IMG/VR virus record: IMGVR_UViG_2545824712_000011
DNA: 39,625 nt
Strand: one strand, 5' to 3'
Origin: a virus
Taxonomy: Duplodnaviria; Heunggongvirae; Uroviricota; Caudoviricetes
Both the position numbers and the translations under genes were made by a program. Positions within the stretch are counted from its first letter, which is position 1; the number at the start of each line of letters is the position of its first letter. The notes under the pieces are model-generated. The model was not told the origin of the DNA, ran no database searches, and saw nothing but the letters and a program-made list of their open reading frames with translations. Positions 31,177 through 32,701 of the stretch are shown piece after piece.

Positions 31177-31884
31177 ATGGATTTGAATAAATTCGATGAG
31201 CCATTCAGCCCTGAAGATATCGAATGGCGAATACAGCAAAGCGGTAAAACACGCGATGGCAAGGTGTGGGCTATGGTGCTGGCTTATGTAACGAACCGGG
31301 CAATCATGAAACGCCTGGACGATGTTTGCGGCAAAGCAGGATGGCGCAATGAATACCGCGATATTCCCAACAACGGCGGCGTTGAATGCGGCATATCAAT
31401 AAAGATTGATTCCGAATGGGTAACCAAATGGGATGCTGCTGAAAACACGCAGGTAGAAGCCGTCAAAGGTGGTCGTTCCGGTGCAATGAAGCGCGCTGCC
31501 GTTCAGTGGGGAATCGGTCGGTATCTGTATAACCTTGAGGAAGGTTTCGCACAAACATCTCTCGATAAAAAGCAGGGGTGGCACAGGGCAAAACTGAAGG
31601 ATGGAACAGGATTTTACTGGCTCCCTCCATCGCTGCCGGGATGGGCAATCCCAGCATCATATAACAAACCATCACCAGAAAATACCAACCAGAAATCTCC
31701 ATCGGTTGACTGCGAACAAATCCTGAAAGACTTCAGCGATTATGCATCAACAGAAACTGACAAGAAAAAACTCATCGAGCGTTATCAGCGTGACTGGCAA
31801 TTAATGGCTGGCAACGAGGAGGCGCAGGCTAAATGCGTTCAGGTAATGAACATCAGAGTTAACGAACTAAAACAGGCGGCATAA
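31177..31884 (+). CDS. Single-strand annealing protein: Rad52-like N-terminal domain fused to Erf-type C-terminal domain
   Basis: WGIGRYLY Rad52-type motif; C-terminus ...ETDKKKLIERYQRDWQLMAGNEEAQAKCVQVMNIRVNELKQAA matches P22 Erf C-terminus as recalled. Confidence 0.75.
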   Translation: MDLNKFDEPFSPEDIEWRIQQSGKTRDGKVWAMVLAYVTNRAIMKRLDDVCGKAGWRNEYRDIPNNGGVECGISIKIDSEWVTKWDAAENTQVEAVKGGRSGAMKRAAVQWGIGRYLYNLEEGFAQTSLDKKQGWHRAKLKDGTGFYWLPPSLPGWAIPASYNKPSPENTNQKSPSVDCEQILKDFSDYASTETDKKKLIERYQRDWQLMAGNEEAQAKCVQVMNIRVNELKQAA

Positions 31885-32391
31885 ATGGCAAGCAGAGGCG
31901 TAAATAAGGTGATTATCCTTGGTCGGGTAGGACAAGACCCGGAAGTTCGATACTCACCATCAGGTACAGCGTTCGCTAACCTGACAATAGCCACGTCAGA
32001 ACAATGGCGAGATAAAAATACTGGCGAGCAAAAGGAATTGACTGAATGGCATCGTGTTGCTGTATCCGGGAAACTGGCTGAGGTCGTGGGGCAGTATGTG
32101 AAAAAAGGTGATCAGATTTATTTCGAGGGAATGCTGAGAACCAGAAAGTGGAAAGACCAGTCAGGGCAAGACCGTTACACAACCGAGGTTCATGTCGGAA
32201 TTAATGGCGTGATGCAAATGCTTGGCGGCATTGGCGACAGCAAACAACAAGCAGCCAGCAGGCAATCACAGAAGCCACAGCAGCAATCATCACCAGCACA
32301 ACACAACGAACCTCCGATGGATTTTGACGACGATATACCCTTTGCACCAGTAACTCTCCCCTTCCCTCGTCACGCTATTCACGCAATTTAA
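31885..32391 (+). CDS. ssb: Single-stranded DNA-binding protein with 15-residue extension past the DDDIPF tip
   Basis: [23 protein letters not shown]...[13 protein letters not shown]... OB fold as E. coli SSB; [11 protein letters not shown] followed by [15 protein letters not shown]. Confidence 0.85.
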
Positions 32392-32404
32392 TCAGGAGAA
32401 AATC

Positions 32405-32701
32405 ATGCCAGCGCCTCTGTATGGTGCGGATGACCCGCGCAACTGCTCCGGTAGCTCCAAGGCGGAGGTGCTGGAAAATATCAAAAACATTTTCGACACG
32501 TTTATTGATCTGCCACCAGAAACAAAAGCAGAACGGATGTACCGACGCGATATACAACTCGCGTTAAAAGATGAGAAGGACCGAACAAACGAAACAGCAA
32601 TGCGACCTTTGCGAAAAGCGACAATAGACAAATTCCCTGAATATATCGACCCGCGTCTGCGTAATTACCGCTCACGCTATGGCGCTATCAGTAATGACTA
32701 A
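32405..32701 (+). CDS. Hypothetical protein (ea region)
   Basis: 98-aa ORF following ssb. Confidence 0.45.

What the first reader, a model, noticed from the sequence alone, without database searches (positions are those of the whole stretch)
31885..32391. SSB whose acidic tip is buried by a 15-residue extension
Bacterial SSB proteins end with DDDIPF, and partner proteins recognise that free C-terminus. Here DFDDDIPF is followed by [15 protein letters not shown] before the stop. The phage SSB might therefore bind ssDNA but fail to recruit host partners, or act as a competitor; it could also be a stop-codon mutation.
Basis: partly seen in the sequence, partly recalled or inferred. Interest (0 to 1): 0.45.

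Follow-up and report, generated by a model that had tools for sequence, protein, structure and literature searches.

The report
Conserved cap on mobile-element SSB tip
This phage's single-stranded-DNA-binding protein carries 15 extra residues after the normally terminal DDDIPF docking peptide, and this addition is not a mutation but a conserved, selected, portable module found on SSBs of many temperate phages and conjugative plasmids of enteric bacteria, which conflicts with the rule that SSB partners need a free C-terminus.

Summary
ORF 31885-32391 (+) is a 168-aa Pfam SSB ending [13 protein letters not shown] + [15 protein letters not shown]. It is not a stop-codon mutation or a sequencing error. 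The same junction occurs in 298 of 5,426 complete E. coli genomes, in at least 120 viral contigs, in phages mEp235, HK75, mEpX2 and epsilon34, and in about 150 plasmids (IncN and others). The extension is almost always exactly 15 residues, [AS]P[VI][TG]LP[FY]P[RS]H.[IV][HY].[ILV]. Its dN/dS is 0.18-0.28, against 0.12 for the OB fold and above 1.8 in the other two frames. It travels with the acidic tip on at least five different ssDNA-binding bodies, next to different recombinases. AlphaFold2 predicts it to be disordered, like the tip. In Sf6, Huey and 58 viral contigs an HNH endonuclease gene sits exactly at the F|A boundary. That insert gives ssb a recoded tip and a stop codon, and its own ORF reads out through the old 15 codons, so the extension predates the insertion. 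Function is untested. Appending GFP to E. coli SSB abolishes ExoI binding and is dominant negative, so the cap most likely changes which partners the SSB can recruit. However, the buried tip remains under very strong selection, which a simple "dead tip" does not explain. I found no paper describing the extension.

The parts
31885..32391 (+). ssb gene (168 codons plus TAA), lambdoid 'SSB-1' type
   Evidence: ORF list; Pfam PF00436 at 1.6e-36; annotated as ssb in mEp235, HK75 and E. coli genomes.
31900..32196 (+). OB-fold ssDNA-binding and tetramerisation domain (residues 6-104)
   Evidence: Pfam match to residues 6-104; AlphaFold2 pLDDT about 75-89 with the expected strands and one helix; dN/dS 0.117.
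32227..32304 (+). Intrinsically disordered, hypervariable Gln/Ser/Pro-rich linker (residues about 115-140)
   Evidence: pLDDT about 30-45; the only part of alignment A2 with indels and little conservation.
32305..32343 (+). Acidic tip [13 protein letters not shown] (residues 141-153), here internal rather than terminal
   Evidence: Identical at 13 of 13 positions to the E. coli SSB C-terminus; nearly invariant among carriers; pN 0.008, pS 0.78.
32344..32388 (+). 15-residue extension ('cap') [15 protein letters not shown] (residues 154-168)
   Evidence: Exactly 15 codons in 120 of 120 viral loci and in 107 of the 120 best protein hits. dN/dS 0.177 over all positions and 0.279 over the 10 positions not fixed by the search pattern, against 1.85 and 2.53 in the other frames. 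Predicted disordered. No match among solved structures.
32343..32344 (.). F|A boundary: the site occupied by the Sf6/Huey-type HNH endonuclease cassette in related phages. It is empty here.
   Evidence: Window versus Huey alignment; 58 viral contigs with the HNH ORF fused to the tail, 8-9 of which retain the full APVTL... tail.
31177..31884 (+). Rad52/Erf-type single-strand annealing protein, directly upstream (its TAA overlaps the ssb ATG)
   Evidence: Pfam PF04098 at 5e-26.
32405..32701 (+). abc2 anti-RecBCD gene, 13 nt downstream, with an AGGAG ribosome-binding site at 32394-32398
   Evidence: Pfam PF11043 at 3.3e-35; sequence read. With the two genes above it forms the 'HK75-type' Rec module of PMC12315714.

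Best explanation
The 15 residues are a conserved, selected C-terminal 'cap'. Together with the acidic tip they form a portable, disordered interaction module of about 26-28 residues, carried by SSBs of mobile elements in Enterobacterales (temperate phages, prophages and conjugative plasmids). Shown: the cap is real, has a fixed length, evolves under purifying selection in its own reading frame, is shuffled together with the tip between unrelated ssDNA-binding bodies, and predates the HNH endonuclease gene that splits it from ssb in Sf6- and Huey-type phages. Inferred: because the cap makes Phe153 internal, it removes the free alpha-carboxylate that the pockets of ExoI, RecO and similar host partners anchor. 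The phage SSB would then coat phage ssDNA, and probably co-assemble with host SSB, without recruiting the usual host nucleases and mediators. The cap's own conserved motif, P-hydrophobic-x-L-x-[FY]-P-[RS]-H-x-hydrophobic-[HY]-x-hydrophobic, would offer a different docking surface. In short, the cap changes the partner repertoire of the SSB hub peptide rather than simply destroying it.
For: (1) Prevalence: the same junction is in 298 of 5,426 E. coli genomes, at least 120 viral contigs, 17 Enterobacterales species genomes and about 150 plasmids, 128 of them conjugative. (2) Selection: the length is 15 in 120 of 120 loci. Synonymous-only variants exist (7 synonymous, 0 non-synonymous changes). 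dN/dS is 0.18 overall and 0.28 at the unconstrained positions, against 0.12 for the OB fold and 1.85 and 2.53 in the shifted frames. Substitutions are conservative (F/Y, I/V/L, A/T/S, R/K/S). (3) Modularity: tip plus cap sits on window-type SSB-1, on divergent PF00436 bodies (MAINTI... and MAINLF...), on a phrog_743 body with no Pfam match, on a host-like long-linker body and on P0211. Its neighbours are Erf/Rad52-type or AAA_24/Sak4-type annealases, or plasmid leading-region genes. (4) It is a linear motif: AlphaFold2 pLDDT is about 30 for residues 114-168. (5) Blocking effect: GFP appended directly to the SSB C-terminus abolishes ExoI binding and is dominant negative (PMC7293020), and RecO Arg132 anchors the SSB-Ct carboxyl end (PMC3152348). 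(6) The cap belongs to ssb, not to the HNH gene. HNH relatives elsewhere end variably just after ...KPIYP(D/E)E. The phrog_2340 profile stops at residue 143 of Sf6 gp26. HNH genes only 47% identical in the core carry the same tail, and their tail variants match SSB tail variants.
Against: No experiment exists on this peptide; the 2025 survey of lambdoid Rec modules says these SSBs 'have not been studied experimentally'. The tip stays almost invariant although it is internal, which argues that it still docks somewhere or becomes exposed. A small 15-residue peptide may not behave like a GFP fusion. Viable phages manage with an uncapped SSB (Sf6 and Huey, where the cap ends up on the HNH protein) or with no cap at all (ES18), so the cap is dispensable in some backgrounds. 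No partner for the cap is identified. AlphaFold2 gave no docking signal and no solved structure contains a similar peptide.
Confidence: 0.5

Rival explanations
1. C-terminal degron or timer. The exposed hydrophobic, His-containing C-terminus (...[15 protein letters not shown]) targets the mobile-element SSB for host AAA+ proteases (Lon, ClpXP or ClpAP). A protein that could poison host SSB tetramers would then be present only during the early burst after infection, induction or conjugative entry.
For: Carriers are early-left operon genes of temperate phages and leading-region genes of conjugative plasmids, both expressed transiently. The C-terminal residues are always small followed by aliphatic (AI, AL, VI, AV, SL, CL). 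The peptide is disordered and exposed. When the HNH gene inserts, the same peptide ends up on a potentially toxic nuclease. The resemblance to known degrons (MuA ...KKAI, SulA ...LYH, UmuD FPLF/FPSP) is recalled from memory only.
Against: Conservation spans all 15 positions, including the N-terminal A-P-hydrophobic-x-L-x-[FY]-P, which is more than C-terminal degrons usually need. This does not explain why the tip remains conserved. There are no stability data.
Confidence: 0.15
2. Removable pro-peptide. The cap keeps the tip latent and is cleaved at F|A by a host or element protease, releasing a canonical IPF-COOH SSB at the right time or place.
For: This would explain simultaneous strong selection on the tip and the cap and the invariant [AS]-P just after Phe. 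The HNH cassette splits the gene at exactly F|A and yields a working SSB with a canonical end. In IncN plasmids a SprT-family metalloprotease gene lies directly next to ssb.
Against: No protease is known for such a site. Phage loci have no conserved neighbouring protease. The SprT adjacency is one plasmid family and may be coincidental.
Confidence: 0.1
3. Neutral scar. The extension is the 3' end of an HNH endonuclease gene left fused in frame to ssb after deletion of the endonuclease, with no function of its own.
For: This was my first reading. The last 46 nt of the window's ssb are 100% identical to the last 46 nt of the HNH genes of Huey and Sf6. Decayed HNH copies (L006) and SSB::HNH hybrid ORFs (P0011, P0014) show that deletions do occur here.
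Against: The tail is far more widespread and diverse than the HNH association. It occurs in Providencia, Pantoea and IncN/IncT plasmids and on five body types with no HNH gene nearby. It is under purifying selection with a fixed length. It is absent from HNH relatives elsewhere and lies outside the HNH family profile.
Confidence: 0.03
4. DNA-level element. The 45 nt are conserved as a homing-endonuclease target, a mosaic 'boundary sequence' or a translational-coupling signal for the downstream gene, and the peptide is incidental.
For: In epsilon34 the tail DNA has 0 differences although the ssb body is 11% diverged. Synonymous divergence of the tail (pooled dS 0.52) is lower than that of the OB fold (1.59). 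Module junctions lie on both sides of it.
Against: Across the wider sample the substitutions respect the reading frame: pS 0.37-0.51 against pN 0.09-0.20, and dN/dS exceeds 1.8 in the other two frames. The downstream genes differ (abc2, DnaQ-like exonuclease, others). A DNA-level role may add to the peptide-level constraint but cannot replace it.
Confidence: 0.04
5. A stop-codon mutation or sequencing error in this particular allele.
For: None found.
Against: Identical or near-identical alleles occur in hundreds of independent genomes, phages and plasmids. No orthologue differs by a stop codon at the position after Phe153 followed by the same 45 nt. Where ssb ends at IPF, about 440-460 nt of foreign DNA is inserted.
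Confidence: 0.01

Closest known systems
E. coli chromosomal SSB (PF00436; PDB 1eqq, 4mz9)
   Same: OB fold, disordered linker and a 13-residue acidic tip [13 protein letters not shown] that is identical in sequence.
   Different: In E. coli SSB the Phe is the last residue and its free carboxylate is part of what partners recognise. Here 15 conserved residues follow it. The linker is also much shorter (about 26 residues against about 56).
Canonical-ended lambdoid SSB-1 proteins (Sf6 gp27, ES18 gp48, Huey CDS0029)
   Same: Same gene family, same position between the Erf-type annealase and abc2. Huey's ssb is about 99% identical up to codon 143.
   Different: They end ...NFDD(S)(D/E)IPF* because an HNH endonuclease cassette follows. 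In Sf6 and Huey the 15 (or 14) cap codons now terminate the HNH ORF.
Engineered SSB-C-term-GFP fusions (Dubiel et al. 2020, PMC7293020)
   Same: Extra residues are appended directly after DDDIPF.
   Different: These are artificial 27-kDa folded domains. They lose ExoI binding and are dominant negative or require wild-type SSB. The natural cap is a short, conserved, disordered peptide of unknown effect.
HK620 SSB (SSB-2, HkaK) and its NDYPPF tail (Hutinet et al. 2018, PMC5928155)
   Same: A phage Rec-module SSB whose C-terminal peptide mediates a functional interaction; its last six residues are needed for Sak4 loading and stimulation. A phrog_743-type body next to an AAA_24 (Sak4-type) gene carries tip plus cap in Trabulsiella and Pantoea prophages.
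   Different: HK620's tail still ends in PF-COOH and has no cap.
Conjugative-plasmid leading-region SSBs
   Same: IncN, IncT (Rts1) and other plasmids encode SSBs with the same tip plus cap.
   Different: Most plasmid SSBs lack it: about 150 records carry it, out of more than 5,000 plasmids with an SSB. That the F plasmid SSB ends at the tip is recalled from memory, not tested here.
Beta-clamp-binding hexapeptides (Hda QLSLPL, epsilon QTSMAF; consensus QL[SD]LF / QxxLF; PMC12309361)
   Same: Cap positions 2-7, P-[VIAF]-[TGSC]-L-[PQM]-[FY], share the hydrophobic-x-L-x-hydrophobic spacing. Their conservation pattern also matches: positions 1, 4 and 6 are the most constrained.
   Different: The cap lacks the conserved Gln at position 1. 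Tyr at the last position is atypical. The second half of the cap (P-R-H-x-I-H-x-I) has no counterpart. Binding is untested.

Membership tests
Bacterial/phage SSB (Pfam PF00436) | N-terminal OB fold matching the family profile | tested here: met
   PF00436 at E = 1.6e-36, 125 bits against a cut-off of 26, residues 6-104. AlphaFold2 gives a confident five-strand-plus-helix OB fold.
Bacterial/phage SSB (Pfam PF00436) | Disordered, poorly conserved linker after the OB fold | tested here: met
   pLDDT below 50 from residue 114; the linker is hypervariable with indels in alignment A2.
Bacterial/phage SSB (Pfam PF00436) | Acidic tip motif D-D-D-I-P-F | tested here: met
   [13 protein letters not shown], identical at 13 of 13 positions to E. 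coli SSB.
Bacterial/phage SSB (Pfam PF00436) | The tip is the extreme C-terminus, giving a free Phe carboxylate | tested here: not met
   15 further codons precede the stop, and this is conserved across carriers.
Bacterial/phage SSB (Pfam PF00436) | Homotetramer that binds ssDNA | not testable with these tools
   Only inferred from 60-70% identity to E. coli SSB in the OB fold.
HK75-type lambdoid Rec module (PMC12315714) | Contiguous annealase + SSB + anti-RecBCD genes with no nuclease gene | tested here: met
   Rad52/Erf-type gene at 31177-31884, ssb at 31885-32391, abc2 at 32405-32701, and nothing between them.
ES18/Sf6-type Rec module with an HNH endonuclease between ssb and abc2 | An HNH ORF between ssb and abc2 | tested here: not met
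   Only 13 nt separate the ssb stop codon from the abc2 ATG. The insertion site 32343|32344 is empty.
Beta-clamp-binding motif | Gln at position 1 of QL[SD]LF / QLxLxL | tested here: not met
   Position 1 is an invariant Pro, preceded by Ala or Ser.
Beta-clamp-binding motif | Conserved Leu at position 4 and a hydrophobic or aromatic residue at the last position | tested here: met
   Leu is invariant and F/Y is invariant, including in the protein-based set that no DNA pattern constrained.
Beta-clamp-binding motif | Binds the DnaN hydrophobic cleft | not testable with these tools
   No multimer prediction or binding assay is available.

The most novel reading that the evidence does not exclude
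Tip plus cap is a dedicated mobile-element device that re-wires the universal SSB hub. The cap abolishes carboxylate-dependent recruitment of host nucleases and RecFOR-type mediators to element ssDNA, giving a 'stealth' and possibly dominant-negative SSB. At the same time its own QLxLxL-like motif (P-hydrophobic-x-L-x-F/Y) plus the basic/His C-terminus recruits a different conserved host factor, such as the beta sliding clamp, to phage recombination intermediates and to incoming plasmid strands.
Probability: 0.12. Interest if true: 0.85.

Novelty: new variant of a known kind. Interest (0 to 1): 0.62.

Why it matters
The current view of bacterial SSB is that its last residues, ending in a free Phe carboxylate, act as the landing pad for well over a dozen replication, repair and recombination proteins. 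Here a large, naturally occurring and evolutionarily maintained class of SSBs has that landing pad sealed behind a conserved 15-residue peptide. It is found in about 5% of complete E. coli genomes, in many phages, and in IncN and other resistance plasmids. If the cap blocks host partners, it is a natural dominant-negative or 'stealth' SSB used by phages and plasmids at the moment their DNA is single-stranded, which bears on SOS induction, recombination, plasmid establishment and defence sensing. If it does not block them, then the accepted requirement for a free C-terminus is not general. Either outcome is informative, and short peptides would be enough to test it. It also matters for recombineering, where these Erf+SSB pairs are candidates for portable systems. 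For annotation, the HNH ORF that captures the cap is usually left unannotated in E. coli genomes.

Tried and rejected
(1) Deletion-scar hypothesis. I adopted this, when the tail proved identical to the 3' end of the Sf6 and Huey HNH genes, and abandoned it. (2) DNA-level conservation only: rejected because the substitution pattern is frame-specific. (3) The cap as a docking peptide for the neighbouring Erf/Rad52 annealase: rejected because carriers also sit next to AAA_24/Sak4-type genes, YqaJ-like genes and plasmid leading-region genes. (4) Intramolecular docking of the cap on the OB fold: AlphaFold2 gives pLDDT of about 30 for the whole C-terminal 55 residues, so there is no support, although a monomer model is a weak test. 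(5) Similarity to any solved structure: only the tip matches. (6) Programmed frameshift or alternative termination at CCC-TTT-G: rejected by inspection, because neither the slippery sequence nor the +1-frame TAA is conserved among the variants. (7) Enumerating carriers with a 33-residue query against the 50%-identity representative library: only 14 hits, mostly gene fragments, so of little use. (8) One wasted scan: an HNH-junction DNA pattern with a mistyped first codon found nothing; the corrected pattern found 58 loci. (9) T4SS translocation signal: considered because of the IncN carriers and PMC11288057, but it cannot explain the majority of carriers, which are phage-borne. (10) Literature searches found no description of the extension. 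The only prior trace is the Sf6 annotation note that gp26 shares 14 contiguous residues with an 'E. coli SSB'.

Full report
**1. What is in the window**

The ORF at 31885-32391 (+) encodes 168 residues. Residues 6-104 match Pfam SSB (PF00436, E = 1.6e-36). The protein ends [13 protein letters not shown] (32305-32343), followed by [15 protein letters not shown] (32344-32388) and TAA. The 13-residue tip is identical to the C-terminus of E. coli SSB.

The gene lies between a Rad52/Erf-type annealase (31177-31884, PF04098) and abc2 anti-RecBCD (32405-32701, PF11043). This is the 'HK75-type' recombination module of lambdoid phages (PMC12315714). The window as a whole is a mosaic P22-like element with HK620/Sf6/N7-type virion genes.

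**2. It is not a private mutation**

- The allele occurs at 99% or higher identity in 173 E. coli records and in phages mEp235, HK75 and mEpX2. It occurs at 89% identity in Salmonella phages epsilon34 and g341c, with the extension intact.
- A 72-nt probe across the tip/extension junction finds it in 298 of 5,426 complete E. coli genomes.
- Of the 120 best relatives in a 5.8-billion-protein collection, 107 carry a 15-residue extension after [DE][IV]PF. Their SSB cores are only 66-93% identical, and they come from Klebsiella, Citrobacter, Enterobacter, Salmonella, Kluyvera, Pluralibacter and Phytobacter.
It also found 17 Enterobacterales species genomes, including Pantoea (Erwiniaceae) and Providencia (Morganellaceae).

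**3. The extension is under selection as a peptide**

- All 120 viral loci have exactly 15 codons before the stop, a length the pattern did not impose.
- There are 24 distinct DNA versions. One differs from the window at seven sites, all synonymous.
- Pooled Nei-Gojobori estimates over 64 unique genes give dN/dS of 0.117 for the OB fold and 0.177 for the extension. The same 45 nt read in the other two frames give 1.85 and 2.53.
- Restricting to the ten positions that my pattern did not fix gives 0.279.
- Amino-acid changes are conservative: [AS]-P-[VIAF]-[TGSC]-L-[PQM]-[FY]-[PAG]-[RSK]-H-x-[IVL]-[HYNQ]-x-[ILV], out to SPVGLQYGKHRVYAL and APFGLQYSSHAIHSL.
- In alignment A2 the linker is hypervariable with indels, whereas tip plus extension form one conserved, indel-free block.
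- The tip itself is nearly invariant (pN 0.008, pS 0.78).
- AlphaFold2 models the OB fold confidently and leaves residues 114-168 disordered (pLDDT about 30). The extension therefore behaves, like the tip, as a short linear motif.

**4. It is a portable module of mobile-element SSBs**

Tip plus extension occurs on several kinds of body:

- the window-type SSB-1 body;
- two divergent PF00436 bodies (MAINTITISGNVGKD..., 152-157 aa; Providencia MAINLFIVTAHLG..., 151 aa);
- a 243-aa body with no Pfam match that belongs to phrog_743, where only the last ~55 residues match classical SSB;
- a host-like long-linker body;
- a further body, P0211.

The neighbours vary. In viral contigs the window-type tail mostly follows a Rad52/Erf-type gene, but divergent tails follow other genes. 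L128 and L134 are prophage modules built around AAA_24 (Sak4-type) ATPases.

The module is also on conjugative plasmids:

- IncN plasmids encode ...MPDF[ED][20 protein letters not shown] next to anti-restriction genes.
- A Providencia plasmid has ...WEDDIPF-APIGLPYPRHAIYVI.
- A Salmonella plasmid has ...APIGLPYPRHTVYCL.
- IncT Rts1 has a 16-residue variant, AGLGASFGKHTIHAIC.

About 150 plasmid records carry the module, 128 of them conjugative, out of more than 5,000 plasmids with some SSB. In Providencia the variant APIGL[PQ]YP[RS]HAIY[VM]I appears on three different bodies. This is compatible either with adaptation to a host factor or with module exchange inside one gene pool.

**5. Relation to the HNH endonuclease gene**

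In Sf6, Huey, IME10 and similar phages ssb ends canonically (NFDDSDIPF* or NFDDEIPF*). It is followed after 3-15 nt by a 155-160-aa HNH-type ORF (phrog_2340) ending ...[26 protein letters not shown]. The last 46 nt are identical to window 32346-32391.

I first read this as a deletion scar. The wider data reverse the direction:

- HNH relatives elsewhere end variably right after ...KPIYP(D/E)E.
- The family profile stops at residue 143.
- HNH genes only 47% identical in the core carry the same tail, and their rare tail variants match SSB tail variants.
- In 8-9 of 58 viral contigs the HNH ORF ends with the complete 15-residue APVTL... tail. The usual Glu at that position is a single change, GCA to GAA.
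- The tail exists in lineages and plasmids with no HNH gene at all.

Against Huey, the window shows 8 substitutions in 1,139 nt of erf plus ssb. Then come 8 substitutions in the 25 nt encoding the tip, then the insert, then 85 identical nt. The cassette therefore consists of a recoded tip, a stop codon, a ribosome-binding site and the HNH gene, inserted exactly at F|A.

A recoded target next to an endonuclease gene is what a homing element would look like. Decayed copies (L006), hybrid ORFs (P0011, P0014) and a second, unrelated HNH gene at the same place in ES18 fit an invasion-and-decay cycle. Homing itself is an inference. In E. coli genomes about 107 further genomes have the tail only, mostly in unannotated DNA.

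**6. What it probably does**

What is shown is a selected, disordered, portable peptide that makes the SSB tip internal.

From the literature, partner pockets anchor the SSB-Ct carboxyl end (RecO Arg132; PMC3152348). GFP appended directly to E. coli SSB abolishes ExoI binding, requires a second wild-type ssb copy, and is dominant negative from a plasmid (PMC7293020).

My best inference (confidence about 0.5) is that the cap alters the partner repertoire. It would prevent carboxylate-dependent docking of host nucleases and mediators on element ssDNA, while offering its own motif to something else.

The main difficulty is that the buried tip remains under very strong selection. This implies that it still binds something in internal form, or has an intramolecular role, or becomes exposed. 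Two rivals address this: a removable pro-peptide (0.1) and a degron or timer (0.15). The degron idea also fits the transient expression of phage early-left and plasmid leading-region genes.

A speculative lead is that cap positions 2-7 (P-V-T-L-P-F) resemble hexapeptide beta-clamp-binding motifs such as Hda QLSLPL, but they lack the key Gln (PMC12309361). Phages such as Sf6, Huey and ES18 are viable without a capped SSB, so the cap is advantageous rather than essential.

**7. Known or new**

The protein is an SSB in every respect tested except one defining feature, a terminal tip, which was tested and is not met. I found no paper describing the extension. The 2025 survey of 325 lambdoid phages states that these SSB-1 proteins have not been studied experimentally and does not mention the extension. 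The only prior trace is the Sf6 annotation note that gp26 shares 14 contiguous residues with an 'E. coli SSB'.

I classify the finding as a new variant of a known kind. Interest is 0.62. It contradicts a textbook expectation about SSB, it is widespread in medically relevant mobile elements, and it can be tested with peptides. Its functional meaning is still inferred.

Noticed in passing
L001 (phage Huey) 1930-2445; L002 (Sf6) 1940-2463; empty site at window 32343|32344: An HNH endonuclease cassette (recoded SSB tip + stop + RBS + HNH ORF) sits exactly at the tip/extension boundary of ssb, and its ORF reads out through the old 15 ssb codons. The clustered recoding of the 25 nt next to the insert (8 substitutions, against 8 in the preceding 1,139 nt) suggests a homing endonuclease that targets the tip-coding sequence. 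PMC12315714 treats such HNH genes as likely genuine Rec-module members.
   Followed up: partly
L005 (E. coli HZDC01) 2068-2547; hits H161-H168: The intact Sf6-type HNH ORF that ends in the SSB tail is left unannotated ('none') or called a hypothetical protein in many RefSeq E. coli genomes. About 107 genomes carry this tail-only form.
   Followed up: partly
L146 (phage ES18) 2272-2874: ES18 has a different, AT-rich, T7 gp7.7-like HNH gene at the same place after ssb (which ends IPF-TAA-TAA), with no remnant of the 15-codon tail. This looks like a second, independent invasion of the same junction.
   Followed up: partly
L006 (Klebsiella phage phiKp_30) 1851-2046: An internally deleted HNH remnant that keeps the first 8 codons (MKICSRCH) and the last ~25 codons. 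Its tail variant, [14 protein letters not shown], was read from the DNA. This is a decaying endonuclease gene.
   Followed up: no
Proteins P0011, P0014 (SSB::HNH) and P0024, P0053, P0060, P0063 (HNH::DnaQ-like exonuclease): Hybrid ORFs join the SSB OB fold to the C-terminal half of the HNH protein, or join the HNH N-terminus to the downstream 3'-5' exonuclease. They could be real deletion products of this module or assembly and frameshift artefacts.
   Followed up: no
L205 (IncN plasmid pTR4) 2568-3353, convergent with ssb at 2005-2538: A SprT-family zinc metalloprotease gene lies directly next to the capped ssb in IncN plasmids. SprT/Spartan-type proteases act on DNA-bound proteins (from memory), so a link to cap removal is conceivable. 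The adjacency could also be coincidental.
   Followed up: no
Window 32431 onward (abc2), compared with L001: A sharp mosaic boundary lies inside abc2. Window and Huey are identical from 32346 to 32430 and then differ at roughly one site in three through 32632, so recombination joints lie within a few dozen nt on either side of the cap.
   Followed up: no
Protein P0078 (Salmonella enterica; representative of a cluster of 588 member sequences): The cluster representative has a tail three residues short ([12 protein letters not shown]). If that is typical of the cluster, the last three residues are dispensable in one large Salmonella lineage.
   Followed up: no
L004 (E. coli EC931) 2396-2559: A prophage remnant in which a truncated lambda-family holin pseudogene abuts the last 59 nt of ssb (DIPF + cap) and an intact abc2. 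This is a large internal deletion of a P22-like prophage.
   Followed up: no
L145 (contig CACSKA010000001.1, labelled Chryseobacterium sp. 18061, 799 kb): It carries a 168-aa window-type capped SSB, and the 8-kb locus has 51% G+C, which looks enterobacterial. The organism label or the assembly may be wrong.
   Followed up: no
L207 (IncT plasmid Rts1) 188-775: The most divergent cap seen: ...DFNDDIPF-AGLGASFGKHTIHAIC*, 16 residues. It keeps [FY]-G-K-H-T-I-H-A-I but has lost the P-x-x-L-P half.
   Followed up: no
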